A stretch of DNA of 63,180 bases, counting the filler, from Dugesia japonica (Eukaryota), in the NCBI GenBank assembly GCA_001938525.1. It is 7 parts of 7 records of this genome, joined end to end, with 100 filler letters (N's around TTAATTAATTAA, not from the genome) between each part and the next. Parts side by side here need not be neighbours in the genome. Positions count along the whole stretch, not along the records: positions 36,832 to 45,351 come from MQRL01580136.1; 6 more parts are not named here. One strand, given 5' to 3'. The notes beneath the pieces are model-generated. The model searched no databases. It was not told the DNA's origin and worked only from the letters and a program-made list of their open reading frames with translations. The translations under genes and the position numbers were made by a program. Below, piece by piece: positions 10,504 through 56,640 of this stretch. Position 1 is the stretch's first letter. Every line of letters starts with the position of its first letter.

Positions 10504-10603
10504 NNNNNNNNNNNNNNNNNNNNNNNNNNNNNNNNNNNNNNNNNNNNTTAATTAATTAANNNNNNNNNNNNNNNNNNNNNNNNNNNNNNNNNNNNNNNNN
10601 NNN
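10504..10603. other. Artificial contig-joining spacer (also 18935-19034, 28017-28116, 36732-36831, 45352-45451, 54105-54204)
   Basis: Identical 44N-TTAATTAATTAA-44N blocks with stops in all six frames. Confidence 0.97.
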
Positions 10604-14027: not shown

Positions 14028-14093
14028 TCTAGTTCTTAAATTGTTATGAATGAAAATAAACGAGGTGTGGATTTCATTTAGATTTTAAATAAA

Positions 14094-14633
14094 ATGTATA
14101 ATAAATGTTATTTTGAAAATTGTAACAAAATCTTACTTAGAAAATACAAAGCTAGACATTTACGAATTTGTTTAAAGAATATTNAAACAAATATTGGCGG
14201 TGATCTTCAATCTTCTAAATTAACTTCAGCAATTTTAAAACCATTTACTTGGGAAAAGTTTCCAGGAGAAAGACATGTGTTTAAAAATAATTATGCTGGA
14301 CCTGGAACAAGATTAGATATAAGATTAGACGAAAATAATAATCCTAAACCTGGAGAAGAACCAATTAATAGAGTAGATGAAGCGGCTTTAAAACATGATT
14401 TATCTTATCAAAATGAAAATTTATTACAAGCGGAGCGCATTAGAGATAGGCATTTAGCCGATGTGAATTTAATTCATGATTTGAATAATATTCCGAATCC
14501 AACCACTTCTGAAAAGATACAAAGAGCTCTTGTAAAATTAGCAATGAAAAGTAAAATCGTCGCTAGAGGCTCCTTGACCGAAAGGATTCTTTTAGGTGTA
14601 GGAACGAACGAAAGGGAGTCTCATCCCTATTAA
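14094..14633 (+). CDS. Zn-finger plus parvovirus-type phospholipase A2 domain protein (adintovirus PLA2X-like)
   Basis: N-terminal C-x4-C...H-x3-C, the Ca-binding loop NYAGPGT, and PINRVDEAALKHDLSY...DRHLAD with the catalytic HD. Confidence 0.88.
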   Translation: MYNKCYFENCNKILLRKYKARHLRICLKNIXTNIGGDLQSSKLTSAILKPFTWEKFPGERHVFKNNYAGPGTRLDIRLDENNNPKPGEEPINRVDEAALKHDLSYQNENLLQAERIRDRHLADVNLIHDLNNIPNPTTSEKIQRALVKLAMKSKIVARGSLTERILLGVGTNERESHPY

Positions 14634-18540: not shown

Positions 18541-19309
18541 TAGGAGCTTAAAACCACAAGTTAAATACACAAAATTATTGCGTAAAAGATTTATTTAATG
18601 TTTTCTAATAAATGTTCTATTTAAGTTTCTCAATTTAGCAACTTTAAATAAATATATAAATAAAAACAATAAATATTGAACACCTTAAATTTTATTGATA
18701 AATGTTTTACTTATTTCACTTTTTTAATTTAACTTTGTGTGCACAAAAAATTTAAATGACAAAAAAAATTAACCTTTAAATAGTTAACATAGCAACCATC
18801 CACAATCAAAGCTTACTTGTATATGATTAGTGGAAAGAAACCTATATACNNNNTATGAGGAAATAATTAATAATTTCAGCCAATAAGAATTGAGATAACT
18901 AAATATTATTATTTAGTTAATTGTATCTTATAATNNNNNNNNNNNNNNNNNNNNNNNNNNNNNNNNNNNNNNNNNNNNTTAATTAATTAANNNNNNNNNN
19001 NNNNNNNNNNNNNNNNNNNNNNNNNNNNNNNNNNAACTATAACAATAAAACTTTGACAAATATACTTTTAAACAGATTAATAAATATCAAATAATTAACA
19101 ATTTAATAAAAAAGTTTATTTAAATAAATGCTAACCTACTTCAATACAGTTGAATAAAAAACTGAATACAACTGCAAAAACAAAAAAATACAATTTTCAA
19201 AAAATTTTCCCAAATTCAAATATCTTCTTCATTACCAAAACACAAAATATAAATTTAAACAAACCAGAAATTCCTAAACAAGTCTCTATCATAAATTCCT
19301 TACATCCCT

Positions 19310-22300
19310 CCTTTAAGAATTTTTCAATCTTTTCCACGTTCCTTTCTAAACGTTTCCCATCCGCACTTTGCAAAACATATCGTCTGTCATGTACTTTTCC
19401 AAAACTGTAAATGGTCATTCGAATCGATCCTGACTTATATCCCCCGTTTCTACTTTCACCAACACTTGTTCTCCTACCCTGAAATGTCTTTTCATTAAGA
19501 CCTGGTTTTTCTGTTGATTGCATTTTTTTTCATTACTTCTTCTTCATACGGGCTCACACCAACATTCTCTACTGAGTTGTCTACCAAAAATCATCTCCTC
19601 TGGACTTTTCTGTGTTGACGTCTAAATCGCTGCATTCAAAGCCAATTCTACTTCTGGTAGAATTTCACTCCAATCTGTACTGTCTCTATCCCGCNATGTA
19701 ACATTAATCCAATCCCTTATTGTACGAAATTGTCTCTCAATTAATCCGTTCGACGTGTGATGATAAGGACTCGATGTGCTTAATATTCAAATCCCGAGCA
19801 AAATCATTCATCGCTTTCGATTCAAATGTTCTGCCGCAATGTAAACAAATTTTACGAGAACAGCCAAATTTTAATATCCTACTCTTAACTATTGCTTCCT
19901 GAATCGTCATCTCATCCTGTTCGTTTAAGCTATTAATATCACATATTTCGTACACTGATCAATCATCCCCAGAATATATTTCTTTCTACCTTTTGTTTCT
20001 TTCAGAGGACCGTAAATATCCATAGAAATAACTTCGAACCGATTTACAGGTTCTGTAATCTTAACTTCTTCCTGTGTTGTAGTAGTTACTGATTTATTTT
20101 TTTGGTAAATTCTGCAACTACGCACAATTTCTCAAATATTATTTATCAGTTGTTTTCCATGGTATTTATTCCTCATATAACCAACCGTCCTATTTACACC
20201 AGCATGACACAATAAACTATGGATACCTTTAATTTTATTTCTCATTTGATCTTCTGGAATCCATTCTTTCCAGACGAACTCCCTTTCTTTTCAAATATTT
20301 TTTGATTCTCATCATCTTCCACCAAAATTTCATTTAACATTCTCGTATTAATTTTGCCTTTCATCGCTTCTTCATGTATCGTTTGAGATTGTACACAGGT
20401 TTCATACTTCAACCGGCTTAACATATCTGTATTTCCATAAAGAACTCCTTTTCTATATTCAAGACTTATATCTAGGCTACTTAAATAGTTAATCGAAGTT
20501 TGAAACTGTGGAGTAATCGGTTTCTTTGTAGACATCATAAAAGTTATTGATTTATGATCTGTTCGCAGAATAAACTTCCTTAAATATAAATAATGTTTGA
20601 AATGTACTAAAAAATAGTACACTGCTAACATTTCTTTTCTCGTTATACAATATCCTTTTTCATGACTCGTCATCGAATGTGATCCGTAAGCAATAATGCT
20701 TTCCTTTCCTTCACTATCTTTCTGCAATAAAACTGCCCCAATCGTATCGAAACTTGAATCTGTATCAATTATAAAATCTTTATTTAAGTCCGGAAATCCT
20801 AAAATTTGAGTTGTCTGCAACGCGTTCTTTAATCCATCAAAAATGTTGTTCAATTCCTCTGTCCAAATCAATTTTTTATTACTCGATCCACTGCATAATT
20901 GTTCTAATATTCGAGCTTTATTTGCATACCACTTTATGAATTTTCTATAATAGTTACAAATTCCGAGAAAACGTCGCATTTTCTTCACACAATTGGTCGT
21001 CGAAAAGTCTTATTAGCTTCTATCTTCGCTGGATAAGTACGTACTCCTTTTACACTAATAATATGACCTAGAAATTTAATCTCTTTCTGGAGAAACACAC
21101 ATTTTCCCGCATTTATCCTCAATCCCGCATCCATAATTCTTGATTACACCCTTTCAATAATTTTATAATCTTCTTTTGAATTTGAGAAAATCAAAATGTC
21201 TTCTAAATACATGATCGCCCCGACCAAATCTCCTATCAACTTCGTCATCATCTCTTGAAACTTTCCAGGTGCCGCTGCTATTCCAAATGGCATTCTATTT
21301 AAACAAAATTGCCCTTCTTTGGTTGAAAAAGCCGTTTTCTCCTGTGATTCTTCACCTAACTCTACTTGATAGTATGCGTTCCCTAAGTCAATCGTACTGA
21401 AATACTCAGATCCTTCCAATGCATCCCACATTTCATTTATATTCGGAATAGGAAAAGCCTGTCTCTCTGTTATTGCATTTAATCTCCTAAAATCTAAACA
21501 TAAACGAATATCTTTCTTATCTTTCTTCCAAATGCACACCAGTGGTGTATTCCAAGGTGTAATGCATTTCCTAATGATATTATTTTCAAATAAATTCTGA
21601 ATTGCCTTGTCAATTTCTCTCTCTAAATTTCATGGTTGTCTATATGGCTTAACATTGATCGGACCTCCATTCGTAACAATCTTGTGAGTAATCAAATGTG
21701 TCTTGCCTATATCCCACTTGTCAGCCATAAACACATCTGCTTTCCCTTTACAAATTTCCCGCAATCTTATATCTATAGATCCAAATATACTGCAAAATTT
21801 TGACCATCGTTCTCCATTCCAAATTTTTCTTCCAAATCGCGCTTCTATATTGCATATGTAATTATTGTATCTTTCTTCGACACTGGCGACATCTGCTTGT
21901 GTAAGCTGCAGACCAAAACTCTTTAACAAATCCATTCCTCCAATTACGCCAGTATTTACTTGTTTGATCACCACAAATGTGACCACCTGACTTACTAATC
22001 CAATCTTTACCTCTGCAAATACTCTCCCTACCGTCTCCAACCTACTATTATCAGCACAACGTAATTTATCACCGCTTTTTTTCAATTGACCTCCTCTAAC
22101 TTGTTGAAATACTCTAAACTCATCACATTAATACGTGCACCTGTATCTAGCAATCCATCCACTGTATATCCATGAATACACATTGACACACCAGGTCTAC
22201 CTTGAAACCTATTATAATTTTTTTGTCCCTCTTCTATGGCCTCCACTATCTCAACTTCATCTTCTCTAAAATTTCTTCTCTTCATAAACCTATAAGCCTT

Positions 22301-22318
22301 CTCCCACACTTTGTCCAC
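19310..22318 (-). pseudogene. pol: Gypsy pol (protease, RT, RNase H, integrase), frameshifted
   Basis: LLDTGA (PR); RLCLDFRRLN...MPFGIAAAP...YLEDILIF (RT, YLDD changed to YLED); TDSS...EMLAV...TDHK (RH); H-x4-H...C-x2-C and ISMDIYGPL (IN). Confidence 0.93.
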
Positions 22319-22566
22319 GTTCTCCCACTTCTCTGCTCCTTAAGGATACTCAACTAGTCTTTCTATTATTATACGGCTCCAACCAACTCCTCTACTGGTG
22401 GAAACCGTTTGTTTGGGACAGATTTTCTTATTTCTTCCTCTTCGGATTCTCTATCAAACTCTCGTTCCTTTCTCTTGTTTTCTTTTTCTATCACGTTTAA
22501 CTGATTATATCGTCGTCTATGTTCATCCATATCTATTCTGTCCCCCATTTATCGACTTCCAGTATT

Positions 22567-23145
22567 TCAGTAACAATTTTCCATCCGATGGTTCCCACTA
22601 TTACATCGTCTGCATCGCCCCTCTGGGCACCATCTTCTAATATGACCAACTTTCTCGCACCCGAAACATCTAATTTGTTGTCTTTCTTGGTATTCTCTAC
22701 TAATATGGCCCTTTTTATGACACGACCAACATTCCTGTACTTCTTTCACAGGACAATTCTCTCTTCTATGACCAACTTTATGGCATATCCAATATTTTCT
22801 CTCTCTTTTGTCTTCACTTCTATCCCATTGTCTGGCATCTGTAAACTCTCTCGGTTCCGCTCGTTGTCTACTTACAACTCTCGCATAACTGCGTACTACA
22901 TTAAATTGTTCCCTCTTCTGCTCTACTCGATCCAACAAAACTAATGTTTCTAGTTTTCTCAACACTACTTCTTCTTCTATCTCCCGATTTTCAGTACAAA
23001 AAACAAGCATTTTGGCAATTAACTGTTCCTTTGTAAACTCTTTATTATCAAATATCTTACCTGCCATATTTTCTACTTTCTTTATATATGGTTTTACTTC
23101 CATATTTCCTCGTTTAAAATTTAATAAATTCTGTAAATATTCCAC
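22567..23145 (-). pseudogene. gag: Gypsy gag with four zinc-knuckle-like motifs
   Basis: YWICHKVGHRRENC, CWSCHKKGHISREY, CFGCEKVGHIRRWC and CRRCNSGNHRMENC. Confidence 0.88.
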
Positions 23146-23371
23146 TATGTTTTTATCTTTTTCAAAAGCCAGATGTAAACGAGACTGAAACCCCTCAGTT
23201 TTTTTCGCTGTATTTTAACGTATTCTTCTACTAAATCTTCATCCAAAAATATACAATTTTCAAAAAATTTTACCAAATTTTACCAAATATCTTCTTCATT
23301 ACCAAAACACAAAATATAAAATTTAAACAAACCAGAAATTCCTAAAAAATTCTCTATCATAAATTCCTTAC

Positions 23372-37353: not shown

Positions 37354-38730
37354 TTAAGTTGAAGCGAGCTTTTCGTTTGTTGGAACTGAGTCTATTATTT
37401 GATCACCACCGATTTCGAGTTCCATCTGACTCCAATCTATAGAAATTTCTTCATCATCGAATGGTTTTGGGTGGGGGTAAATTCCATTGAGCTTTTCTTC
37501 CATTAGCTTTTCATTGATATTAAGTAATTCCATATAAGAGGGCGCACCATCTACAAGACTTAGAGAGTTATGTGAATTCCAGGCAAGGTGGCTCCATTTT
37601 ATATTGGAAACAATCATATTGCTCTTGAGGTGACCAATCTTTGATTTTGGGAACTTCAATCTATTGAGAATCGTATCGTTGTTCGTTCTCCACGATCCGA
37701 GGCATCCGACTACAAATGTATCCAGGACAACTTTCCAGTTTGGGAGAATTTTCTCAAGGCCTTCTTTCAGTATTTGGTACTTTGAGATATTAGCTTGATG
37801 GCATTCTTCCATATTTTCCGAGTTGTCGTAAGGCGATTTTACATCTATTAGCCAAAATTCCCGACCTTCTTTTATTTCGATCTGCAAGTCCACTCTCAAC
37901 AATGAATTCAAAAGCCCACATTTTTGGTCTTTGAGAATAGATAAACTGGGACTTGAATCCTGCAAAGCTGCAAAAAGAAGATTAAGTAATGCATTATGTC
38001 GATTAACGATAAAATGCATATTAGCCGGGCACGATCCAAGCACGTGATATTGAGATTCGATATCATATTTGCATTTTCTGCAGTTCTTTTTCTCTTTAGC
38101 ATTATGAGGACGACCATTGACTGGAAGAGTGTTNGTCCTCGCTTGNTGAATGAAAAGCCAGTCTGANATTTCGNGACTGCCATTGTGAAGAACTTTGGAA
38201 GACATCTTATCTGAAGAAAGAGCAGACGCAGAAACACCAGCTCTGCATTGTTCTGACCATTTAAGCAGATTTGAGAGTTTATAAAGACGGTGAATTTGAA
38301 AACTGGTATCAGATTTTGAATTTCCATGAATGGTGAGACTCTCAAATTTAGCATTGACTTGAAGACAGAAGCCAAGTTCGTTGTGCTTAAAGATTATGGT
38401 GAGGTCACAATGTTCAGCGAGATGTTTAATGCTGTTTCGGATTTTAGTCCACCATGATTTAAGACCATTCTCTCGGTCTCCTTTATTTAGCCAATCCATC
38501 ATTGAAGAGTAGTTTGGGTAGTATGTAATTTTAAGGTCTTCTTGAACGCCTTTAGACAAGCTGTATAAGTTGATACCAGCAACGATTGGATCATTACAGG
38601 TGAAGATTCGGAAGGTATGAACTATAGCTTGAATGGCGTATTCATCTCTAACTGATGTCAGACCAAGCCCACCCATATCTGATGAAGAATATATAGGTAA
38701 GCTGTAGAGGCATTGAGTGGAAGACCACAA
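37354..38730 (-). CDS. Thumb/linker, CCHC zinc knuckle and restriction-like endonuclease
   Basis: GGLGL, CRKCKYDIESQYHVLGSC, RHN, RVDLQI...IDVKSPYD...SKY and VVGCLGSW. Joined to RT by a small indel in a (TA) run near 38690. Confidence 0.93.
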   Translation of the reverse strand: MWSSTQCLYSLPIYSSSDMGGLGLTSVRDEYAIQAIVHTFRIFTCNDPIVAGINLYSLSKGVQEDLKITYYPNYSSMMDWLNKGDRENGLKSWWTKIRNSIKHLAEHCDLTIIFKHNELGFCLQVNAKFESLTIHGNSKSDTSFQIHRLYKLSNLLKWSEQCRAGVSASALSSDKMSSKVLHNGSXEXSDWLFIXQARXNTLPVNGRPHNAKEKKNCRKCKYDIESQYHVLGSCPANMHFIVNRHNALLNLLFAALQDSSPSLSILKDQKCGLLNSLLRVDLQIEIKEGREFWLIDVKSPYDNSENMEECHQANISKYQILKEGLEKILPNWKVVLDTFVVGCLGSWRTNNDTILNRLKFPKSKIGHLKSNMIVSNIKWSHLAWNSHNSLSLVDGAPSYMELLNINEKLMEEKLNGIYPHPKPFDDEEISIDWSQMELEIGGDQIIDSVPTNEKLAST

Positions 38731-39908
38731 ATCTGTTTCAATCTTTTTCTAACTTCAAAATCAAGTCCTCTGCTAAAAACTGTGTTTTTGACTTCATGAT
38801 GGCCATAACCTGAGAGTTCACGGTTTGATTTGTTAAAATTTCGAAAGGCAAAAGTGAATCTGGATTGGATGAATGTTTTGAAGGCTTCAATCTTTTGCCA
38901 AGGAAATAGAATTGAATCCACTAATTTGTCAAAGTCTGCAATAACTACTTTAAACAGCTTGTCCGGAGAGTTCTTTAAGCATTTGCTAATGTCGACACCA
39001 AGATATTTATATTTATCCATGTAGCTTAGATTTGGTAAAGCTGATTTGTTGATATATATAGCCTCTGATCGATCAAGTGTGGCCATGCGTCCGCATTTAG
39101 AAACATTAAAGGACATGCCACTACAAATTGTCCAAAAGTTGGCAGTATTGACCATATTTTGTAAATCTAAACTATTTTCAGCGATTAAAGCGATGTCATC
39201 AGCATAGGCTAAGCATTCCACTCTAAAATTACCTATACGAGCCCCAGCATTCCGAACAAGAGCGCATTCTGTAAGAACAGGATCAAGTCCGATATTTAAG
39301 AGGAGCATAGAGAGCAGGCATCCTTGACGAACTCCTCTTTTGATTACAATAGGAGATGTGACGATATTAGCGCAGATGAATAATGTTGAACAATCATCAT
39401 AGAAATTTTCGATAAGGTCAGAAGATGATTTTTCCATTCCCATGAGTCTAAGAACACTCGTAATATGATGAATTGGAATGCTTCCAAAGGCATCAGAAAT
39501 GTCTAAGAAGGCGATATGGAGATGCTTCTTTGACCCATATTCTTCGAGCATGCATCTAAGGATATTATTGTGTTCAGTGCAGCCCTCAGATCTACCTGTG
39601 ACTTTCTGCAGAGGGAATGATAGATTATTATTATCAATCCAATTTTCAATCTGTTTAGCCAGGCATGCAGTAAAGAGTTTATAGGTACACTCAAGTAAAG
39701 CAATTGGCCTCCAAGATTCCATTTTGTTATAATGTCCCTCTTTATCCGGTTTAGGGATTAGAAGAGTGGAGTATGATTTCCATCTTTTAGGAATAATTCC
39801 TGTTTTGATAATTCTGTTAAAGAGAAGACACAGAAATTGGGCTTGAGGATCGCAATATTTTATGTCACCATAAGTAACATTACTGATACCTGGGCTACTG
39901 TTTGACAT
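38658..39908 (-). CDS. Non-LTR reverse transcriptase
   Basis: SSPG, LIPK, WRPIALL, AFLDISDAFGSI, GVRQGCLLS, LAYADD and YKYLG. The frame is open up to the N gap at 39943, so it is probably continuous with the protease ORF. Confidence 0.97.
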   Translation of the reverse strand: MSNSSPGISNVTYGDIKYCDPQAQFLCLLFNRIIKTGIIPKRWKSYSTLLIPKPDKEGHYNKMESWRPIALLECTYKLFTACLAKQIENWIDNNNLSFPLQKVTGRSEGCTEHNNILRCMLEEYGSKKHLHIAFLDISDAFGSIPIHHITSVLRLMGMEKSSSDLIENFYDDCSTLFICANIVTSPIVIKRGVRQGCLLSMLLLNIGLDPVLTECALVRNAGARIGNFRVECLAYADDIALIAENSLDLQNMVNTANFWTICSGMSFNVSKCGRMATLDRSEAIYINKSALPNLSYMDKYKYLGVDISKCLKNSPDKLFKVVIADFDKLVDSILFPWQKIEAFKTFIQSRFTFAFRNFNKSNRELSGYGHHEVKNTVFSRGLDFEVRKRLKQICGLPLNASTAYLYILHQIWVGLV

Positions 39909-41472
39909 TGAGTTGAGAATTTGGATGAGATCGCATTGGTCGANNNNNNNNNNNNNNNNNNNNNNNNNNNNNNNNNNNNNNNNNNNNNNNNNNNNNNNNN
40001 NNNNNNNNNNNNNNNNNAGATTTTAAAGCAAAGTAATTTTCAATTGAATCTTTAGTTGGAGAAGTATTGACCCTAGAATCGAATTTGATGAAATCGAATA
40101 CAGATTTTGGAGAGTGTTTAAACTTTTCGCGTAAAGAAAAGTCAAATTTATATCTATCTTTTCTGAAACGATTTGTGCTGTTAATGTTCTTTGACTTAAT
40201 ATTCCTCATCTTCAAAATATGATTAGTGTAGGCATTTTCAATTTCTTCAGGAGAGAAGTGCTGGAAATCAAGAAACATTTTTGCAATAGTGGAAACTCTC
40301 TCATGAAGAGTGTGAGTTTTCTTAGAAGAATAAGTAGGATTGATTTCCACATCGATTTTAGCGGAAAGGCTGATAAGAGACACCATTTTTTCACGAACTT
40401 TAGGCAAGTTAATGTTTGTGAGATTTTGGTTGTGTATGATTCTTTCAATGATTCCACAAGTAACAAGACCATTGTCAGAACGGCTGGTAGAAACATCGTG
40501 ATGAGGAGGACTAAGAGTAAATTGAGTCTCAACAGTTGGTTTGTTTCTAAAGAAGGAATTGAGATTGTTATTGAGAATAACACCAATATCAATCAACTGT
40601 TTATTTAGCGTTTGACTAGTAGTATCAATCAGGAACGATTTATGGTTTTTTTGATTAAATACAAATATGTTCCAATTCATATTAGAGAGAACAAAAGGGC
40701 AGACAATAAGATCCTTTTCAATAAACTGCCTGTATGTGATGTTTTCTTTAATAAATCCCTCATTACTATTGGCTAGGTTGATAGAACAGTCAACACTAAG
40801 AACCAGATGTTTAGAGGATTTAACGAATTCAGATAGATACCTCATCAAATGGAATTTATCAAAGTTTTGTAATGATTTTGAAGCTTCCATTTTTGAAGTG
40901 TTTTTGAAGTAACCACCACCATCAAGGCCACTGGCAGGACCTTTGTCGGAATCTTTAGTAGAATTTTCACATGCATACGAATGAACCCATGAGCGAATTT
41001 CTCCAATGTCAACCTTCTTAGGAATTCTGCCAATGGAGATCTTCATAATGTATCCACAGACTAATGGGCCACAATCATTACCATTAGTCTGCTTTTGATG
41101 TTCATTAGATTCGGTTTGGAAAACGAATTTTCTTCCAAGTTCTTGATTGAGGGTTCTAGTCATTTCTCTACCAATAGTAATGGTATTTGAATTAAGTCCC
41201 CCAAGAGGATCGAGGATCATAGATTTATAGTTGTAGGCAAAAAACAAGACCCAGTGATTATTGTTGACAAGAATAACTGTAAAGATTTTTGAAATATCAC
41301 TGAAATCAAAGTTATTCCATGTCTCACTGATAGAGGTCGAGTTTTGCTTAACTAAAGTAAAAACCCAGCTAGGAATCACTACTGATCTTTGATTCTTCAT
41401 ATTAACTTCAATGTAGCGATCAATTTGTGCATCGCTGAACCAAAAAGTGTCTTTGTCAGGTGGCTTTTTCAC
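39895..41472 (-). CDS. Tandem Ulp1/SENP-like (C48) cysteine protease domains
   Basis: Domain 1: WFSDAQID, NNNHWVLF, ILDPL, QKQTNGNDCG (H-D-C triad plus oxyanion Q). Domain 2: CPFVLSNMNWNIF, LIDTT, SRSDNGLVTC (His and Cys replaced by Asn). Confidence 0.88.
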   Translation of the reverse strand: MKKPPDKDTFWFSDAQIDRYIEVNMKNQRSVVIPSWVFTLVKQNSTSISETWNNFDFSDISKIFTVILVNNNHWVLFFAYNYKSMILDPLGGLNSNTITIGREMTRTLNQELGRKFVFQTESNEHQKQTNGNDCGPLVCGYIMKISIGRIPKKVDIGEIRSWVHSYACENSTKDSDKGPASGLDGGGYFKNTSKMEASKSLQNFDKFHLMRYLSEFVKSSKHLVLSVDCSINLANSNEGFIKENITYRQFIEKDLIVCPFVLSNMNWNIFVFNQKNHKSFLIDTTSQTLNKQLIDIGVILNNNLNSFFRNKPTVETQFTLSPPHHDVSTSRSDNGLVTCGIIERIIHNQNLTNINLPKVREKMVSLISLSAKIDVEINPTYSSKKTHTLHERVSTIAKMFLDFQHFSPEEIENAYTNHILKMRNIKSKNINSTNRFRKDRYKFDFSLREKFKHSPKSVFDFIKFDSRVNTSPTKDSIENYFALKSXXXXXXXXXXXXXXXXXXXXXXXXXRPMRSHPNSQLNVKQ

Positions 41473-41474
41473 AA

Positions 41475-41951
41475 TCAGGCTTTTTGGTGATTTGGGTCTG
41501 ATTGTGGAGCTACACCATCAGTTTTCCATTTTTTTAGAATGAGGCTTTGCTGGAGTTGAGATGGCCAGAGCAGATTTGAGTTTGTTTTTTTATTTCTGGT
41601 ATTGTTTCCAACACAGCTGCTGTCCTTGATTGGTTCATCAATGCTGGAATTAGCTGATAGATCAAGAATCTCAACTGTTTGATTATGATCTTTGGAAGGT
41701 AAGTTAAAATCTATTGCTAATTCAATAGGAACGAGATTTGTAAAAGTGTTCATGGCAATAGCAGCAGTGGGTGAAGGCTGCCTTAGATCTATTGGTGGAA
41801 CTATAGATTGGAGTGGTATGACGATTGATGAGTTTGTTTGATCTTCATTGGTGATCTGGTCGTTGATTTTCAGAGACGAATGTTGATCTACCTGGTTTGT
41901 TGAGTTCGGAAGATTGATTGGAGGAAGAGTATTCTTAATTGGAGTCTTCAT
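41475..41951 (-). CDS. Pro/Ser/Asn-rich linker segment of the polyprotein
   Basis: Bridges the 727-aa and 525-aa ORFs via frame changes. Confidence 0.5.
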   Translation of the reverse strand: MKTPIKNTLPPINLPNSTNQVDQHSSLKINDQITNEDQTNSSIVIPLQSIVPPIDLRQPSPTAAIAMNTFTNLVPIELAIDFNLPSKDHNQTVEILDLSANSSIDEPIKDSSCVGNNTRNKKTNSNLLWPSQLQQSLILKKWKTDGVAPQSDPNHQKA

Positions 41952-44118
41952 GCAATGTTGTAGATTGGGATTGCTTTTCCTTGAAATTGTTATTAGAAAA
42001 GATCACGCTATGAAGGAAAGAGCAAAGTCTTGGAGCGCCCTTCGATCTCAGGAATTCTGCTAAGTCCGACATCTGATCAGATGAAAGTGAGCAAAGGCTC
42101 CGAAAACGACAGCACTTCCGCATCAAGCGAAGGAAGGAGAGAGTAAGTTCTCTGGTTCTTTGTCTATTCGGATCTTTGAGAAGTTGTTGATAGTTGTGTA
42201 AAAAGGTAGTGTTCTTAGAACGAACATAATCAAGGATGTTTAGATCAAAAGATGAGCAACTCCGCTCAATATCCAAGAGGATGGACCTAAGAGTATCAGG
42301 GAAGATAGGAGTAGGTCCACGTTTTGGAGTCTTAAGAGGAGCTTTTTGAGGCAGAGTCCGATTAGTGTTAGGGATTTGAGAATGGGTATTATTGGATTTA
42401 ACAGCGTCACTGTAGGATGAATTGAAAGGTAAGATTTTTTCAGTAGCCGGCGAGAGATTAGAAAAATTATCGGCAGTTGTGAGATCTTTGGCAAAATTGC
42501 CCGGTAGACTAACAGAATTCAGCCTAGTGTTTAAGTCCATGATCTTATCAAATAATGGATTCTTAGGAAGATCAAAATGAATAATAGTTTGAGCCAATAG
42601 GTCGATGAGACGCGGTGGAAGATTGGCGATATTAAACAGCTTATTAGTGAGCTTAGAAAAGCTGGAGGCTAGATCACGATAGAAGACTTTTTTCTTCTCT
42701 GGGAATAGGAAGATGGTAACATCAAGACAGTGTAGCATCTTACGGAGGAGGTCAGCCATGATGGGGTTATGTTCGTCAATCAAAATAAGGTCTCTGTCTA
42801 AGGATTGGAGCGAAAACAGAAGTTCTCTAGATATTGGGGAGCTATAAACCGGGTGCCAGATCTCCGCAAGATGCGAAAAATCATCGCTAACAAAGGTATT
42901 AGCCATCGAGATACGGAGATTATTAGGAAGATCATAATTTAACTGAGAGACAGTTACAGAGCGAGAAGCAGAAGCAGGAGTATTGAATCTGCAAGGAGAA
43001 ACACAATGACGAGTACGGGAGCCGAATTTAGTGTGGTAGAAACAAAAGGCAGAGGAAGGAGAAGTTTGTTTGTTAAAAGAGCAGGGGCCAAAGCAGTGAC
43101 GGGCAGCATCTCTAAACCGACAATGATAAAAGCAGGTGAAGGCCTTTCTTTCAGATGAGTTAATATCATGGTTATAATCATCATAAAATTTATCTTTGGA
43201 AGTAGAGGAATTAGGCTTAAAATTACCATAGTTATAATGTTTTTCATCTTGATTATTAGTTTTGAGAACTGTCAGGTTATGATTCACACTGTCATTAGCA
43301 TAATAATCTTTATTAATAACTTCATCAGTAAGTTTCGACATTTTTTCACAAATTGATTCGAAATTTTGTGAAAAAATTTTTCTTTCGCCTTTCTTTTCAT
43401 TTTGTTTAACCGAGGTATTTATAGTTGTTGCTTGGCAACGTGTAATTTCAGATAACCTTAGGTTAATAAAATTAATAAATTTTATTAAAAAATCAGGGTT
43501 TTTGAATTCATTTAAATTAGCTGTTTTAGAGCTATTGGTAGAAGTGAGATTATGGGAAATAATGTCTTGAGGAAAATCCTGATTTAATTTGGGTGGATTA
43601 AAAGCAAGAGCATGAGAATCTTGCACAGGTGAAGCAGGTATAATATTATTCAGAGAATTCAGTTTTAAATTATTGTTAAGGAGAAATTCAAATGCTTCCA
43701 GTTTGTTGAGAATATTGTTGAGATTCTCTGTAATTTTGGAAGTGTGGCTCAAATGAGTGGGTTTATTATTATGGATGTCGGGTTTAACTGAATCAATTGG
43801 ATTAGAATAAATACCAGTTTTCAGACTTCTGCAGTTATGAAAGGCAGGTATAGGTGAAATAGTGTCAGAATCAGGATATTTATTCAGGTTAATCTGATGG
43901 TTGATATAATTNATATCGGAAATAAGCTCATCAATGGAGATCTTAGCAGGGTCGTTTTTTATAATAAAATTGTTATCAACAGCCGACTTTTGAATATTAT
44001 TAAAATTATTAACAGGATCATTATTACTATGTTTATTACTATTTTGAATATTTTTATTTACAAAATCGTGGTAATTACAGCTGCTTATAAAATCTTTATC
44101 ATAGTTAGTATTATACAA
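41935..44118 (-). CDS. Retrotransposon N-terminal region with two C-x2-H-x9-C-x3-C zinc motifs
   Basis: 727-aa ORF containing CFYHCRFRDAARHCFGPC (43134-43081) and CFYHTKFGSRTRHCVSPC (43044-42991). Confidence 0.75.
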   Translation of the reverse strand: MYNTNYDKDFISSCNYHDFVNKNIQNSNKHSNNDPVNNFNNIQKSAVDNNFIIKNDPAKISIDELISDXNYINHQINLNKYPDSDTISPIPAFHNCRSLKTGIYSNPIDSVKPDIHNNKPTHLSHTSKITENLNNILNKLEAFEFLLNNNLKLNSLNNIIPASPVQDSHALAFNPPKLNQDFPQDIISHNLTSTNSSKTANLNEFKNPDFLIKFINFINLRLSEITRCQATTINTSVKQNEKKGERKIFSQNFESICEKMSKLTDEVINKDYYANDSVNHNLTVLKTNNQDEKHYNYGNFKPNSSTSKDKFYDDYNHDINSSERKAFTCFYHCRFRDAARHCFGPCSFNKQTSPSSAFCFYHTKFGSRTRHCVSPCRFNTPASASRSVTVSQLNYDLPNNLRISMANTFVSDDFSHLAEIWHPVYSSPISRELLFSLQSLDRDLILIDEHNPIMADLLRKMLHCLDVTIFLFPEKKKVFYRDLASSFSKLTNKLFNIANLPPRLIDLLAQTIIHFDLPKNPLFDKIMDLNTRLNSVSLPGNFAKDLTTADNFSNLSPATEKILPFNSSYSDAVKSNNTHSQIPNTNRTLPQKAPLKTPKRGPTPIFPDTLRSILLDIERSCSSFDLNILDYVRSKNTTFLHNYQQLLKDPNRQRTRELTLSFLRLMRKCCRFRSLCSLSSDQMSDLAEFLRSKGAPRLCSFLHSVIFSNNNFKEKQSQSTTLHEDSN

Positions 44119-44126
44119 CGAATTAT

Positions 44127-44774
44127 TTACATTATAACAGATTCAAAAACATTTAAGGGATTATTGCTAGAAAACGCATTAAAATTACTTTTAACCTGGT
44201 CTGAAGCCGTAAATCTAGCTGATAGAGTACCGCAAGCATTATCAAGTCGATTTTGGTTGTTAATGGCATCCTGTGTGATATGTGGTACATCAAATATATC
44301 GTTGAGTTTGCTAGGATTTTCATGGTAAATAGGATTGGAATCAGGATTTCTTTCACGAAATGGTCTTTCATAATTTGCAGTGCCATTTTGCTTGTATTTA
44401 TTCAAACCGAATCTGGNACCNGTNGCAGGAATAGATCTACTATNAATGGTAAATCCTTGTTGGTAATTTGCATCAGTGCGGTAGCCATTGTATTCATTAC
44501 TTGAGGCATTTGGATGTTTGTAGCGATTAATTGGGTAATTTGAATTCCTGTAATTATTACGGTTTTGGCGATATTTGGTGAAGTTTTTGAATCTTTTCTG
44601 CTTTTGGTAATTATTAAATCCACTGAAATTAAAACCAAGTGTCATTTCTTGGTCATTTTCAATTTCACATTCATTTAAGGATCCATAGTGGTCATATTGT
44701 CCGACATTTTCATTTATATTTTCAGTGGAAATTTGCTTATCCATAAGTAAACTGATAGAAATGATAAAATCCAA
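44127..44774 (-). CDS. Asn-rich N-terminal segment of the retrotransposon polyprotein
   Basis: 215-aa low-complexity ORF in tandem with the next ORF but in a different frame; no domain recognised. Confidence 0.5.
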   Translation of the reverse strand: MDFIISISLLMDKQISTENINENVGQYDHYGSLNECEIENDQEMTLGFNFSGFNNYQKQKRFKNFTKYRQNRNNYRNSNYPINRYKHPNASSNEYNGYRTDANYQQGFTIXSRSIPXXGXRFGLNKYKQNGTANYERPFRERNPDSNPIYHENPSKLNDIFDVPHITQDAINNQNRLDNACGTLSARFTASDQVKSNFNAFSSNNPLNVFESVIM

Positions 44775-45759
44775 ATTTNNNNNNNNNNAGTTGAATAATT
44801 AAAATTTCCAAATATCGAAAATATACTATAGAATTGAGAACAATTTGCCAAATTTGATAATTGATATACTTCCAACTGTTTAAAATTGTGACAAATTTAC
44901 TACTTATTAATAGCAGTAGAGCATAACAAATTTTTGCTTCTGTCCAAGCGCACGAGCATGTTGGATAATATTACGTAACCTTAACCTGTGGGTTACGTAA
45001 TTTGAAATTTAACCTCATTGATTGCTCAATTTTTTGACTTATCTCTCACAATTAATAAATTAAAAATTAATATAGCAAACTTTCAATATTTTATTCGAAT
45101 CAACATAATTTGGAATAAAAATTTCAATAATTAGTAGTAGAAAATTGAAATGTACAGGTTTTGATGTGAATTTAGGGGTCATCTATTGAAAAAAGGGGTT
45201 CTAGGGGTTTTTTGCATTTTAAGTGGTGATAATCGATTCCAAACTAGGCTAATGTCCGCCCGAGAAATGTTAAGGACTATTGCCGGAATCGAATAAACCA
45301 AAAATCAGCTCAATCGGATTACGTGGTAAAATTCTGTGTGTGTTTGAATATNNNNNNNNNNNNNNNNNNNNNNNNNNNNNNNNNNNNNNNNNNNNTTAAT
45401 TAATTAANNNNNNNNNNNNNNNNNNNNNNNNNNNNNNNNNNNNNNNNNNNNTATATATATATATATATATACGAGCTTTATATATAATTTCAATAGATAA
45501 ATAGAGAAAAAATGAATAATAATAATATTTATTATATAACATGGTAACTGTTTTATGTAATGCTAAATCCTATAAAATTGATTACTTATTAGTTCAAATA
45601 CCTTTTTATATGTGCATTGATTATGTAATAGATCCCATTTCATTTCTAAACGGCTCAGGTAATTATTCTAAATTTGAAACTTTACTCGTGTGCACCTAAT
45701 TTTCTACTCACCAGTAACATTTCAAAGCTTGTTGCATAAAATATTTGAAGGAGTATTAT

Positions 45760-47470: not shown

Positions 47471-50400
47471 CATTTATTTCACTATTACAACACATGTTTA
47501 GTAAGATAATTACACTTGAAATAGACCTGATTACATATTAAAATAGAATTTGATCATTTTCTATTGGCTAAAATCTGTCTTGACTTTTTTTCTTGTTTCT
47601 ACCTTGATGAGTACAATATCGTCCAGTTTGAATTTTTTGTTAGTAATCACGTCCGAAGTGTTTTCTTTAGTTCTATCTGAGACTTTTGACTCATACCACT
47701 TTTCTCTGATAATTTTCTTTCCAAATATGATCTCAGCTGGGCTCTATCCAGTTGTCTTCTGTTATGTTGCGTTCATTGTAAAATCTATTTCCGGTAAAAG
47801 ATCTGCCAAATCTGTTGTCTTTCTTTCCCAAAGTGTTGCATTAATCAAATCTCGAATTGTCCTGAATTTTTGTCTGTTTACATTATGATGATAGAGACTT
47901 GAAAAGCAAAATTTAAAATCTAGCTTTAGGGCAAAATCTCGTATAACTCTGGATTCAAAAGCTTTCCTACAATCTAGTCTTATTTCTCTTGGACATCCAA
48001 ATCTCACTATCCACTTTTCAAAAATAGNNNNNNNNNNNNNNNNNNNNNNNNNNNNNNNNNNNNNNNNNNNNNNNNNNNNNNNNNNNNNNNNNTCGATTAT
48101 TCCAAGAATGTATTTTTTTCGTCCACTTGTTTCCCGCATTAGCCGACATATATTTGTGAATATGACTTCAAACTAATTTATAGCTTCTAAACTCTATGTC
48201 TTCTCTTTAGTTGCTGTTGTCACTACTTTGGTCTTCTGACAAATTTTACAACTACAAACTATCTCTGTGTTTTGCTACACAATTTTTTCGAAATGTATTT
48301 TTTTCTCATATATTAATACACTTTTCAACTACTGCATGACATAATAATTTATGTATTTCTTCGATTATTTCATGTATTTTGCCATTCAAAATTTCCATTT
48401 GCTTGATTAAATTTGTTTCTTCAGAAATGTTTAATTGCTCTTCTTTTTCCTTTTCAATTATTTTCAGTATTCTCGTTTTAATCTTCCCTTTCTTGACATC
48501 TTTACTGTGTCATTAGAGATTTCTTCAGACCCTCGAAAGTATCGTTTATTTTATCAGTCCATTCTAATTTCTTGTAGCTTATTCCGCTACACAACTGCTC
48601 TTAGATCATTGATTCTTGCGTAGTTTTCTAAGAGCCTTCTGTAATATTTACATATTTCTAAAAACTTCGTAACTTCTTCACACAGTTAGGTCTTTCAAAT
48701 GTTCTTATTGCTTCTAATTTAGACCTATCAGTTCTCACATTATCCCTGCTAATTATGTGTCCAAGAAATTTGATTTCGCTCTGAAGAAATTGACACTTTT
48801 CTGAATTAATTCTGAAACCAGTACTCGTTATTTCCGTCAATACTTTTCAATGACTTTATAGTGTTGATCTTTATTGTTCGTAATATCAGAATGTGTTCAT
48901 CAAGATAAATCGTGGCTTGATTGATTTCGCCTGCCACTTTTGTCATCATCTCCTAAAATGTCCCTGGTTCCGCTGCGATGCCAAATGGCATTCTATTAAA
49001 ACAATATTGTTTGTGCTTTGTTGAAAACGCCGTTTTTCTTTGAGATTCTTTTTCGAAATCTACCTGATAGTAAGCATTTACCAAATCTATTGAACTGAAA
49101 TATTTGGCTCCATTTAACTTGACCATAATTTCATCGACATTAGTAATCGGAAAGGCTTGTCGTTTTGTTACTTCAATCAATTGTCTAAAATCCAAACAGA
49201 TTCTTATGTCCTTCTTTTTCTTTTTTCAAAAACAAATCAGTGGGTTATTTCATGGAGAATTGCGTTTCCGGTTAATATTATTCTCGAAAAGGTTATGGAT
49301 AGCTTCTTCAATTTTAGATTTCCAATTTATTGGTTGACTATACGGTTTTACATTGATTGGTTCACCACTTGTGATTATTTTGTGTCTTGTCAAATGTGAG
49401 GGTCTTACATCCAATTTATCTGCCATAAAAGCATCTTCTTTACTTTCAATTATTTTCAATAACTGTTGATTCTCTTTAATCTTCAAAATATTTTAGTCTT
49501 TTGTCTATCGCTCTCCATTTTTAATTTGTCTCACTAATTTCGCTTTAATATTGCAAATGTAATTTTCAACTTTTTCATCTGTTTTTCTATCGATCTTTTG
49601 CATAAACTAGTATCCAAAGATCTTCTGCAAATATATTCTACCTATCAGATCTGGTGTTACACTTTCAGCAACTAAGAATGTAATCTCTTAACAAAATTTA
49701 TCAATTATCATTCCAATTCTAACTTTTCCTACAATTTCCAGTGCACTATTATTTGCACAGCGCAATTTTTTATCACTCATTTCTAAATTTACTTCTCGTA
49801 ATTTATTAAAACAACTCAAACTCATAACGTTAATTCTATCCCCGGTATATAATAAACATTCAATTTTTTTGCTTGAATTGATACCGTAACACTTGGTCTG
49901 CATTGCAATATGTGGTACGAAATATTTGTTTTCTTTTTTATTTCAATTGTTCCGAACTAATTTTATTTTTCTATCATACCAAAAATTTTCCCTCTTTAAG
50001 AACCTGTATACTTTTTCCATAACTTAAATGATATCATCCCAATTTTTGAATCTCTGAGGATAATTACTCACTTCATTTAAGAATGGGTGGATAGAACCAG
50101 CTTCTCTACTGGTAGAGCTCTATCTTTTGGGTACTTTCTTTCAGAATCACTTTCATACACTTCCTCATATCCATCGTTTATACTAACATCTTCATCTGCA
50201 ATCGCATGTACTCCATTATATCGGTTTCTTGATCTTTCTGCAGTCATAAATTTCTCACTTGTTCTTTTCATTTTCAAATTTGTGTAGCACTCTTCTACTC
50301 TACTTTAACTATTATCACATCGTTTACAACTCACTTCTTGACATAACCTTCTAATATGGCTTACCTTTTCACAACCAAAATATTTTCTTAGTTTTTTATT

Positions 50401-54100: not shown

Positions 54101-54204
54101 CTTTNNNNNNNNNNNNNNNNNNNNNNNNNNNNNNNNNNNNNNNNNNNNTTAATTAATTAANNNNNNNNNNNNNNNNNNNNNNNNNNNNNNNNNNNNNNNN
54201 NNNN

Positions 54205-56640
54205 GTCAAAAACCATATTAAACTCTGAACATAAAGACAGAATTAATAATCTAATTAATATTACTAAAAATCTTACTTTTGATGAAACACTAGATATTAT
54301 CTATCAACAATTTTCTTGTGCTATTTAATTAAAAAATGCTAAAAACCGTATCTTGGTAATAAATCTTAAATTAAAACCCTTGATAAAAAGCAACTAAGAA
54401 CTGTATTTAACATAAATATGAAGCGTACAGTTGGTTATATTCTTAATGGAAATACTATCTCTGATACACCTAAATATGACGACATTATTAATAATTTTAC
54501 TCACTTTGATCCTACTTCAATAACTGGGAAAATATTAGACCATTTTGCCAAACTTCGAACACTCCATTAAATCTTGAATTATTTTCTTCTGACGAAATCT
54601 TACATGAATTTAGACGTGCCAAAAATACTACACCAGGTATTGATGGTATTTACTATAGGGATAATTCCAAATTAGATTATAAAGGTAAACTTCTTACTCA
54701 TTTTTTCAACAAAATTATCTTGATTGATCAAATTTCATCACAGTGGAAATCGTTTAAAACTGTTCTTATTCGAAAACCTAATAAAGAAGGTAATTATGAT
54801 AAAATCTCATGTTGGATACCGATTGCTTTACTTTCTGTTATGTACAAATTATTCGCTTCAGTCTTGACACGTAGATTGAACACTCAAGAAGTAAAATAAA
54901 TTATGCTGTAACTATTGCATGGTTAGACATAAAAAATCCTTTTGGTAGTATACCACATCAATATTTGCGGTTTATTCTTCGTTTTATTGGAGTGAGTCAT
55001 GATTTTGTTAATATTCTTAAAAACTGCTACTCTGATACAAATGGTTACTATAGTTGTGGTCCTATTCTTACAAGCAACATTACAATTAAAAACGGTGTTA
55101 AACAAGTTTGTCTACTATCTATGATTCTTTTTTTCTATTGCTATAAATCCTGTTCTTGAAGCTACTAAAACATGTCAAATATCACTTTTCATGATAAATG
55201 CTTCTTCTATTCAGGGATTTGCGTATGCTGATGACATAGCTCTAATAGCTAAAAATACTGATGATCTTCAAACTCTTGTAAATAAAGTTATTNNNNNNNN
55301 NNNNNNNNNNNNNNNNNNNNNNNNNNNNNNNNNNNNNNNNNNNNNNNNNNNNNNNNNNNNNNNNNNNNNNNNNNNNNNNNNNNNNNNNNNATGATATAAA
55401 AATTAAAAAACTACTTAGTAATGAATTTTATCAATATCTTGTTGTTCCAGTTGGAGATCGTAATAATCAAACAGCGTATGATGCTATTCAAAAATTGATA
55501 ACTGATGCCGAAAAACTGGCAACTTGTAAACTGTTTGGTTGGCAAAAACTGAAAGCTTACAAGCTGTTTTTGCATTCTCGTCTTACTTTTCCTTTTAGAA
55601 CTCGTGAAATCAAAACTAGTGATTTATCTATTCGTTTCGGTAACAGCAAATTTAAGTATAATTCTACTAGTAAACTTCGAATACAACTTCGAAAAATGAT
55701 GAATCTACCTGATCATTCTGAAATTGCTTATTTTTACACATCAACAGAAATGTGGGGAGGGGTGTATTGATCTTCTTGATGATTACCACTGTTAAAGTAT
55801 TGAACAATTCTTTAGATTATTTACTACTGATTTTGACTATACTAAAACAATTAATCATGAGTCTCTTATAATTCCTGCTTCATCAAGATTAGAGATAAAG
55901 GTACCGACTTTATCCCAAAGTTTTGACTGGATTAATGGTAAAGATAGTATCAAAGGTTGCAAATGGAAAAAACAAGTTTTATGTGTCTGAGAACGGCAAT
56001 TGAATACATTTAAAGAGCTCATGACATAACCATTACATTTACAGTTGAAATGAAAGGTACACTATTGCGTATTAATATGCCCAATCGGACGGTTACTGAA
56101 ACAGTGACTGCAGAAAACATGTTACCTTTCTACTACATAAAATCATATTTGACTCATACTGAATAATATGGCATAAAAGTAATAATAGCAACATTTTAGT
56201 TGATGCGGTGCGTCTTAGTCCAGATGTCAACAAAACTAAGCTAAACTATATGTTCTAGTCAAAATTGAATGAAATTTCATACAAAAAGCACGCACAAAAA
56301 CACTTTCAATAAATGCTCGACCTAATATCATTCTTTTTGATGAAAGACTATGTTGACGATGTCTCATTCTCACAATGAAACAATGTCACATGTTCTACAA
56401 AGATGTGANNNNNNNNNNNNNNNNNNNNNNNNNNNNNNNNNNNNNNNNNNNNNNNNNNCACAATGAAACAATGTCACATGTTCTACAAAGATGTGATATT
56501 AACAAATCATTAGGAACAAAGCGTAATAATTCGTGCCTTGAAATAATTGTTCAATATTTAAAATCCCCTGATTTAATAATCGTAATTGATTGTACTTCTT
56601 CTAGAGATGCCTTACCAGAAAGGTTGGATTCTAGTTGAAT
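54205..56640 (+). mobile_element. Second NeSL-like RLE non-LTR retrotransposon, decayed (RT to CCHC)
   Basis: TPGIDGITY, KPNKEGNYDKISCWIPIALL, GVKQVCLLS, FAYADDIALIA, WQKLKAYKLFLHSRLTF and ETMSHVLQRC parallel the element at 37354-39908. Confidence 0.9.

What the first reader, a model, noticed from the sequence alone, without database searches (positions are those of the whole stretch)
40390..41450. Non-LTR retrotransposon with a tandem active plus pseudo Ulp1/SENP protease pair
Seen: domain 1 keeps His (41256-41254), Asp, Gln and Cys (41073-41071). Domain 2 has the same layout but Asn at both the His and Cys positions, within an otherwise open frame. Established: NeSL-clade elements encode a Ulp1-like protease upstream of RT, and SUMO takes part in piRNA-guided TE silencing in animals. 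Inference: the duplicate may be a SUMO/Ubl-binding pseudo-enzyme paired with a deSUMOylase (anti-silencing) or a polyprotein-processing protease.
Basis: partly seen in the sequence, partly recalled or inferred. Interest (0 to 1): 0.7.

Follow-up and report, generated by a model that had tools for sequence, protein, structure and literature searches.

The report
Retrotransposon with active and dead protease
A family of jumping genes carries a working SUMO-protease-like enzyme followed by a conserved glycine-glycine site and a disabled copy of the same enzyme, which suggests the element cuts its own protein in two as some viruses do, and this can be tested in a test tube.

Summary
Confirmed and extended. 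A decayed non-LTR retrotransposon of the restriction-like-endonuclease type (minus strand, about 44800-37354) encodes two C48/Ulp1-fold domains before its reverse transcriptase. Domain 1 keeps His, Asp, Gln and Cys. Domain 2 has the Ulp1 fold (AlphaFold pTM 0.80; TM 0.73 to yeast Ulp1) but no catalytic Cys. This is not decay of one copy: all 9 RT-bearing hits among 43 have the layout, 0 of 25 second or third domains with a residue there keep Cys (14 Ser), a sister lineage has two dead copies, and domain 2 is as conserved as domain 1. The Asn/Asn residues are peculiar to this copy. Best reading (0.55): domain 1 cuts the element's own polyprotein there, leaving the dead domain at the front of the RT-endonuclease protein. 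Canonical SUMO binding by domain 2 is doubtful (its tunnel tryptophan is lost). NeSL membership and host were not established. Not found in the papers searched; Repbase could not be checked.

The parts
41475..44798 (-). N-terminal, ORF1-like part of the element in three ORF pieces (44798-44127, 44142-41935, 42002-41475), with two copies of a Cys-x-Tyr-His-x9-Cys-x2-Pro-Cys motif at 43134-43081 and 43044-42991
   Evidence: ORFs; translations; motif places; no Pfam family
40972..41448 (-). Domain 1: C48/Ulp1-type cysteine protease with intact catalytic set (Trp 41442-41440, His 41256-41254, Asp 41211-41209, Gln 41091-41089, Cys 41073-41071)
   Evidence: Pfam PF02902 E 1.1e-7; residue places; model
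40870..40971 (-). Disordered linker between the two domains
   Evidence: AlphaFold pLDDT under 50 at model residues 166-187
40912..40926 (-). Leu-Asp-Gly-Gly-Gly motif; inferred self-cleavage site after the second Gly (40917-40915)
   Evidence: Place; first Gly invariant in 12 of 12 aligned relatives; GG or GxG in 22 of 25 proteins; cleavage is inference
40375..40869 (-). Domain 2: C48-fold pseudo-protease (Asn at His column 40677-40675, Asp kept 40626-40624, Asn at Cys column 40473-40471, Gln and tunnel Trp lost)
   Evidence: Alignment to domain 1; AlphaFold pTM 0.80; Foldseek Ulp1 1euv E 6.5e-7, TM 0.73; VIA Z 15.5, rmsd 3.4, 154 aligned
40018..40374 (-). Helical and basic segment between domain 2 and the reverse transcriptase, conserved in relatives (56% identity to P0049)
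   Evidence: role not tested
38658..40022 (-). Reverse transcriptase (YADD at 39206-39195)
   Evidence: Pfam RVT_1 E 4.4e-28; the relative P0049 matches R2 retrotransposon structures best, E 1.6e-49
37354..38748 (-). Thumb/linker, CCHC zinc knuckle (38082-38029) and restriction-like endonuclease motifs (37896-37696)
   Evidence: Read from the translation; 63-66% identity to P0049; the RLE assignment rests on recalled motif knowledge, with no Pfam RLE hit

Best explanation
The element is translated as a long polyprotein: ORF1-like region, active CE-clan protease (D1), Gly-Gly linker, dead protease copy (D2; two copies in a sister lineage), RT, zinc knuckle, endonuclease. SHOWN: D1 has a full catalytic set; D2 has the same fold without the nucleophile throughout the family and is as conserved as D1; a GG/GxG motif sits 38-51 residues after the catalytic Cys in a disordered linker. 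INFERRED: D1 cleaves after the Gly-Gly, as adenovirus protease and ASFV pS273R do in their substrates, releasing an N-terminal product (ORF1-like region plus protease) from a D2-RT-endonuclease protein. D2 then stands where R2 proteins carry their N-terminal DNA-binding module and acts as a non-catalytic protein-interaction or folding domain for the integration machinery. D1 may also strip ubiquitin, NEDD8 or SUMO from host proteins, since Leu-x-Gly-Gly is the ubiquitin/NEDD8 tail. Cis versus trans cleavage and the partner of D2 are unknown.
For: First linker Gly is one of only 9 invariant columns in a 12-protein alignment, the other 8 being in D1 (catalytic loop and last helix); the second Gly is 90% or more conserved. 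GG lies within +30..+61 of the Cys in 18 of 25 proteins, GG or GxG in 22 of 25, the (M/I/L)xGG or (M/I/L)xGxG pattern in 13 of 25; backgrounds in the same polyproteins are 5.8%, 10.1% and 0.8%; 0 of 4 C48 hits from outside the element group have GG there. The window copy reads L-D-G-G-G. Those patterns are the adenain consensus (PMC7464072, passages); ASFV pS273R, a SENP-like enzyme, cuts polyproteins after Gly-Gly (PMC4584293, passages). D1 keeps both tunnel tryptophans (13 of 19 and 22 of 23 rows) that wrap Gly-Gly in Ulp1, and a P1' Gly is proposed to relax P1/P2 selectivity (PMC9603560, passages). The linker is disordered in the model. P0022 is one 2421-residue ORF and P0049 is uninterrupted over 1324 residues. 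D2 identity to P0049 is 60% against 57% for D1; outside the catalytic columns, 23% against 24% over 21 pairs.
Against: No cleavage was measured. A glycine cluster can be conserved as a flexible hinge or turn. 3 of 25 proteins lack the motif (P0017, apparently frameshifted there; P0024; P0040), and P4 is not hydrophobic in 8 of 22, including the closest relative. The proteins are related, so the counts are not independent, and they were found with a protease query. The model does not place the motif in an active site (one search gives no contacts; pTM 0.54). No GG site lies upstream of D1 in the window's ORF pieces, and only one far upstream in P0022, so the cut would leave the protease on the ORF1-like part. 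Cellular SENPs need a folded SUMO as well as the Gly-Gly (established), so D1 would have to behave like the viral members. P0040 has GGG before an intact domain, an unexplained exception.
Confidence: 0.55

Rival explanations
1. D1 acts mainly on host conjugates (deSUMOylase, deneddylase or deubiquitinase) to counter silencing or degradation. The Gly-Gly linker is a hinge or an uncleaved pseudo-substrate that regulates D1.
For: Best structural matches are Ulp1, SENPs and NEDP1. SUMO represses R1 and R2 retrotransposons about 1000- and 300-fold in Drosophila (PMC7676866, section 8). Ulp1 and OTU domains recur in DNA transposons (PMC2836005, passages). It can coexist with self-cleavage.
Against: It does not by itself explain a GG/GxG motif at a fixed place in 22 of 25 proteins. 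Fold rank does not give specificity: Z values for SUMO and NEDD8 proteases are within about 1.4. P4 is mostly Leu/Ile, a ubiquitin/NEDD8-like rather than SUMO-like tail.
Confidence: 0.2
2. One reading: D2 is a substrate-trap that binds SUMO or another ubiquitin-like protein in its dead active site, targeting the RT complex to SUMOylated chromatin or feeding substrates to D1.
For: Cys-to-Ser is the commonest change (14 of 25 rows), as in trapping mutants of SENP1/SENP2 crystallised with SUMO (titles). The W515-equivalent is kept in 19 of 29. D2 has its own conserved positions N-terminal to the sheet, in the region that I recall as the substrate-binding variable region of CE-clan proteases.
Against: The W448-equivalent tunnel residue is Trp in 0 of 24 dead domains. 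Most D2-specific conserved residues are hydrophobic and may be structural. No binding evidence was obtained.
Confidence: 0.15
3. D2 has no partner of its own. It is kept only as a structural spacer or as part of the folded N-terminal region of the RT protein.
For: D2 is highly degenerate in P0022 (branch 3.1-3.5), and P0037 lacks one of the two dead copies of its lineage.
Against: D2 diverges no faster than D1 outside the catalytic columns, keeps a full fold and was duplicated again in a sister lineage.
Confidence: 0.12
4. D2 is still an enzyme with changed chemistry (Ser nucleophile).
For: P0030 and P0021 keep His, Asp and Ser at the triad columns.
Against: His is kept in 7 of 29 and Gln in 2 of 23 rows; the window copy has Asn at both His and Cys columns.
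Confidence: 0.03
5. D2 is a recent duplication decaying in this copy or subfamily.
For: This copy is frameshifted elsewhere. A tree forcing the window's and P0049's D1 and D2 together is 24.3 log-likelihood units worse but not rejected (p-AU 0.118).
Against: 9 of 9 RT-bearing hits, some only 20-30% identical, have the layout. D1 and D2 of one element are only 14-23% identical. 10 of 17 listed read differences in D2 are synonymous against about 26% expected (only 40 of 434 differences were shown).
Confidence: 0.02

Closest known systems
Nematode NeSL families and Utopia-1_TSP (NeSL clade; PMC4640811)
   Same: [quoted passage not shown]
   Different: One protease domain is described and aligned there (main-text passages and S5 Fig); no dead duplicate, triple array or Gly-Gly linker is mentioned in what I read. 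S5 Fig stops at the end of the domain, so it cannot show a downstream GG. No spliced-leader or U2 target was found near this copy.
R5/LIN elements of flatworms (PMC4640811)
   Different: No protease is mentioned for them in the passages read. Their targets are 28S rDNA and tRNA genes, and none is detected in the window.
Adenovirus protease (adenain) and ASFV pS273R
   Same: CE-clan fold (VIA Z 8.7 and 9.9 to D2); they cut their own virus's proteins at (M/I/L)xGG, (M/I/L)xGx-G or Gly-Gly-x.
   Different: They are stand-alone viral enzymes acting in trans on capsid precursors, and structurally further from D1/D2 than the cellular SENPs are; no dead copy.
Ulp1/SENP/NEDP1 cellular proteases (Pfam PF02902)
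   Same: Fold and catalytic residues of D1; fold of D2.
   Different: Short core domains of about 160 residues fused in tandem inside a retroelement polyprotein; substrate untested.
Ulp1 domains of Ginger1 and Mutator DNA transposons (PMC2836005)
   Same: Transposon-borne C48 domain of unknown role.
   Different: C-terminal to a transposase in Ginger1; in the passages read only roles in ubiquitin/SUMO pathways are proposed, and 'polyprotein' and 'cleav' do not occur in the main text.

Membership tests
C48/Ulp1 protease (domain 1) | Pfam PF02902 above cut-off | tested here: met
   32.3 bits against cut-off 20.7
C48/Ulp1 protease (domain 1) | His, Asp, Gln, Cys in CE-clan order | tested here: met
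   His, Gln, Cys in 23 of 23 first domains, Asp in 22 of 23
C48/Ulp1 protease (domain 1) | Cleaves SUMO or another ubiquitin-like protein | not testable with these tools
   needs an assay
C48 pseudo-protease (domain 2) | CE-clan fold | tested here: met
   pTM 0.80; TM 0.73 to 1euv; Z 15.5; all 22 PDB hits of a D2-centred profile are CE-clan enzymes, best E 0.003
C48 pseudo-protease (domain 2) | Catalytic Cys absent across the family | tested here: met
   0 of 25 rows with a residue, 4 of 29 rows gapped; the column is uncertain in the most degenerate rows
SUMO-trap type pseudo-enzyme | Intact Gly-Gly tunnel (W448 and W515 equivalents) | tested here: not met
   W448 equivalent 0 of 24; W515 equivalent 19 of 29; tunnel residues from PMC9603560
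SUMO-trap type pseudo-enzyme | Binds SUMO or another ubiquitin-like protein | not testable with these tools
   no eukaryotic partner could be given to the complex predictor
RLE-type non-LTR retrotransposon | RT followed by CCHC knuckle and restriction-like endonuclease | tested here: met
   RVT_1; motifs read directly; nearest solved RTs are R2 proteins
NeSL clade (NeSL, R5/LIN, Utopia) | RT groups with NeSL-1, R5 and Utopia in a tree | not testable with these tools
   No reference sequences held; the RT tree shows only that the 10 rows form their own group (SH-aLRT 98) against L1/RTE-like outgroups
NeSL clade (NeSL, R5/LIN, Utopia) | N-terminal Ulp1-like protease (some members only) | tested here: met
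   scope of the feature from PMC4640811
NeSL in the strict sense | Insertion into spliced-leader exons of nematodes | tested here: inconclusive
   No Rfam family at gathering score and no tRNA in the window; element ends are not defined and assembly gaps lie close on both sides
Self-processing CE-clan polyprotein protease (adenain/pS273R-like) | Conserved xxGG or xxGx-G site in an exposed region of the same polyprotein | tested here: met
Self-processing CE-clan polyprotein protease (adenain/pS273R-like) | Cleavage at that site demonstrated | not testable with these tools
   needs an assay

The most novel reading that the evidence does not exclude
A lineage of non-LTR retrotransposons matures its RT-endonuclease by virus-like self-cleavage with a SENP-family protease at a ubiquitin-tail mimic, and uses one or two dead copies of that protease, exposed at the new N-terminus, as readers of SUMO, NEDD8 or ubiquitin in place of the zinc-finger/Myb targeting module of R2, while the released active domain removes the same marks from host silencing factors.
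Probability: 0.15. Interest if true: 0.88.

Novelty: new variant of a known kind. Interest (0 to 1): 0.68.

Why it matters
Ulp1-like domains have been seen in several transposon groups, but the papers read offer only guesses at their job. Here the sequence points to a specific substrate and bond inside the element's own protein, so the question becomes a simple assay. If cleavage is real, these elements separate an ORF1-like product from the RT-endonuclease by proteolysis, a strategy known from viruses and LTR elements and, to my knowledge (recalled, not exhaustive), not shown for non-LTR elements. A dead protease copy kept, and even duplicated again, across lineages 20-30% identical implies an unknown non-catalytic role next to the RT. 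It also matters for anyone mining RLE elements as gene-insertion tools, since the mature protein would start after the Gly-Gly.

Tried and rejected
No genome is held for the window, so copies could not be collected directly. Laying reads showed high-copy relatives across both domains, but only 40 of 434 differences were listed and none at the catalytic codons, so the state of those codons in the host's other copies is unknown. No RNA holder was listed by the run search. One RNA run gave 42 reads from about 25% of the run, 38 under 90% alike; too few to judge level or strand. Two further protein searches gave no new members: 'longer' with alignment A1 covered only 2696-5000 residues (0 of 1719 candidates), and alignment A2 returned P0006 and 9 distant RTs, so there is no RT-selected sample. 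Two metagenome scans found nothing (0 of 31 and 0 of 36 stretches confirmed), so no dN/dS could be computed. Complex prediction of D1-plus-linker with D2 gave no verdict (0.11 and 0.00 against a mark of 0.34, alignment not used). Cluster look-up gave no names or taxa for 10 proteins. Earlier-findings searches returned nothing. The DpaA_N Pfam hit on D2 (E 0.02-0.19, far below cut-off) was rejected. Single origin of the dead domains is favoured but not proven: quick tree SH-aLRT 98, careful tree 97/75; with catalytic columns and P0022_D2 removed, P0040 falls among them, while the tree holding the 28 together is 1.3 units better (p-AU 0.56). Malik and Eickbush 2000, the NeSL-1 paper, is not held, so what it proposes for the protease is unseen.

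Full report
Observation. On the minus strand one frame runs from 41517 to 39895. Its translation holds a Pfam C48 domain (E 1.1e-7) with His 41256-41254, Asp 41211-41209, Gln 41091-41089 and Cys 41073-41071. A second block, 40869-40375, aligns to the first at 23% identity over 157 residues, far above shuffles (96 against 33.9 +/- 6.0; 0 of 2000), with Asn on the His and Cys columns, Asp kept and Gln lost. Downstream lie an RT (RVT_1, E 4.4e-28), a CCHC knuckle and restriction-like endonuclease motifs (the RLE reading is from recalled motifs). The element spans about 44800-37354 in six ORF pieces, so this copy is broken, though not inside the two domains.

Fold. AlphaFold on a 26-row alignment gave two confident domains of the same topology (mean pLDDT 85.7, pTM 0.54) joined by a low-confidence linker at residues 166-187. 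Domain 2 folded alone (11 rows) reached pTM 0.80 and matched yeast Ulp1 at E 6.5e-7, TM 0.73 and Z 15.5, rmsd 3.4 over 154 residues; the 23 chains at Z 8 or more are all CE-clan by title. The alignments held only element sequences and no templates were used.

Family. A phmmer search of 1.84 billion representatives with the two domains gave 43 hits. Nine carry an RT, and all nine have a first domain (whole or its C-terminal part) followed by one or two dead domains. I cut 60 domains from these hits, the window and P0049, leaving out P0006 (same cluster as P0049), the fragments P0024 and P0025 and eight partial first-domain tails. In 23 first domains His, Gln and Cys are present 23 of 23 times. 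In 29 second or third domains Cys is present in 0 of 25 rows with a residue (Ser 14, Pro 3, Asn 2, Thr 2, Trp 2, Leu 1, Lys 1), His in 7 of 29 and Gln in 2 of 23; the columns are uncertain in the most degenerate rows. The window's Asn/Asn is thus local: the nearest relative, 57% identical, has Lys and Ser. Domain 2 is under constraint: 60% identical to P0049 against 57% for domain 1 and 72% for RT; 23% against 24% outside the catalytic columns over 21 pairs. Reads from the host species and from a run labelled as a second organism cover both domains, at mostly under 95% identity; of the 17 listed differences inside domain 2, 10 are synonymous against about 26% expected, from a partial list. The RT tree splits the group into two sister lineages: one with D1-D2 (window, P0049, P0009, P0021, P0022, P0030) and one with D1-D2-D3 (P0013, P0019, P0036; P0037 keeps only the D3 type; P0034, without RT, has the same three domains). 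The dead domains tend to form one group (SH-aLRT 98; 97/75), and a dead domain from a non-RT protein (P0045) groups with its own active partner instead. The single origin is favoured, not proven.

The linker motif. In a 12-protein alignment nine columns are invariant: eight in domain 1 and one glycine in the linker; the next glycine is nearly invariant. Among 25 proteins with 55 or more residues after the catalytic Cys, 18 have GG within +30..+61, 22 have GG or GxG, and 13 match (M/I/L)xGG or (M/I/L)xGxG; the same patterns occur in 5.8%, 10.1% and 0.8% of equal windows further down the same polyproteins. Four C48 hits outside the element group have no GG there. The window reads Leu-Asp-Gly-Gly-Gly at 40926-40912. 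The rest of the linker varies in sequence and length (11-25 residues from the last conserved Arg). The proteins are related and were found with a protease query, so these are not independent trials, but they are mostly 20-30% identical. Misses: P0017, P0024 and P0040. P0040 is odd in having GGG just before an intact domain.

Mechanism. CE-clan proteases pass Gly-Gly through a tunnel built from the triad and W448, S513 and W515 in Ulp1 (PMC9603560, passages). Domain 1 keeps both tryptophans; domain 2 has lost the first in 24 of 24 rows. Adenovirus protease cuts at (M/I/L)XGG-X and (M/I/L)XGX-G (PMC7464072, passages), and ASFV pS273R processes polyproteins after Gly-Gly (PMC4584293, passages). 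A conserved, exposed site of this form just behind an active CE-clan protease in a polyprotein of up to 2421 residues (P0022) is most simply its substrate. I put self-cleavage at 0.55. The cut would leave the ORF1-like region with the protease, and the dead domain at the front of the RT-endonuclease, where R2 has its zinc-finger/Myb module (PMC5678591, passages). The role of domain 2 is the weakest step: a non-catalytic interaction domain is inferred from conservation alone. Host deconjugation by domain 1 remains possible and is compatible; SUMO does repress R1 and R2 in flies (PMC7676866, abstract and section 8), but nothing here shows SUMO specificity, and the P4 residue (Leu 8, Ile 4, Val 1, Tyr 1 of 22) is closer to the ubiquitin/NEDD8 tail.

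Comparison with what is known. PMC4640811 (passages, section 10, S5 Fig whole, S6 Fig parts 1-2 of 3) describes a single N-terminal Ulp1-like domain in nematode NeSL families and Utopia-1_TSP, says NeSL is confined to nematodes, and gives rDNA and tRNA targets for planarian LIN families without mention of a protease in what I read. PMC2836005 (passages) lists Ulp1 domains in Ginger1 and Mutator transposons. PMC13580325 and PMC7650587 (passages) have no occurrence of 'protease' in their main text. Ten literature searches (listings only, apart from the papers named) showed no description of a tandem active/dead protease or of a Gly-Gly self-cleavage site in a non-LTR element. Repbase, most subscription journals, bioRxiv supplements and the original NeSL-1 paper could not be seen and may bear on novelty. 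The element works like a protease-bearing NeSL/Utopia element, but membership of that clade was not testable.

Verdict. Real, family-wide and apparently undescribed; a new variant of protease-bearing RLE retrotransposons, with a directly testable self-processing hypothesis. Interest 0.68.

Noticed in passing
window 54343-56620 (+): A second, more decayed RLE element of the same group, closer to the three-domain lineage (52-58% to P0019 in RT pieces); no protease match upstream, so probably 5'-truncated. Both lineages occur in this genome.
   Followed up: partly
window 20242-23214 (-): Decayed LTR retrotransposon of Ty3/gypsy type: zinc knuckle, RT and RNase H pieces. Short integrase-like fragments near 1013-1492, 19197-19529, 28073-28501 and 47762-48172 look similar by eye.
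   Followed up: partly
window 14082-14633 (+): ORF with a phospholipase A2-like domain (PF08398, E 3.9e-8), a family that I recall from parvovirus and Polinton-like capsid-associated proteins; possibly an endogenous viral or Polinton fragment.
   Followed up: no
window 43134-42991 (-): Two tandem Cys-x-Tyr-His-x9-Cys-x2-Pro-Cys motifs in the ORF1-like region; I recall a similar motif from gypsy Gag proteins; no Pfam hit.
   Followed up: partly
P0040, residues 29-202: A GGG motif precedes, rather than follows, an intact C48 domain, and the domain groups with the dead third domains when catalytic columns are removed. It may be an element whose post-linker domain is still active, or a further upstream domain.
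   Followed up: partly
P0045, residues 213-381 and 519-678: A protein without RT that has a dead C48 domain (Ser at the Cys column) before an active one; the two group together, an independent tandem active/dead pair.
   Followed up: partly
window 10504-10603, 18935-19034, 28017-28116, 36732-36831, 45352-45451, 54105-54204: Identical 44N-12 base-44N blocks are assembly spacers, not biology.
   Followed up: yes
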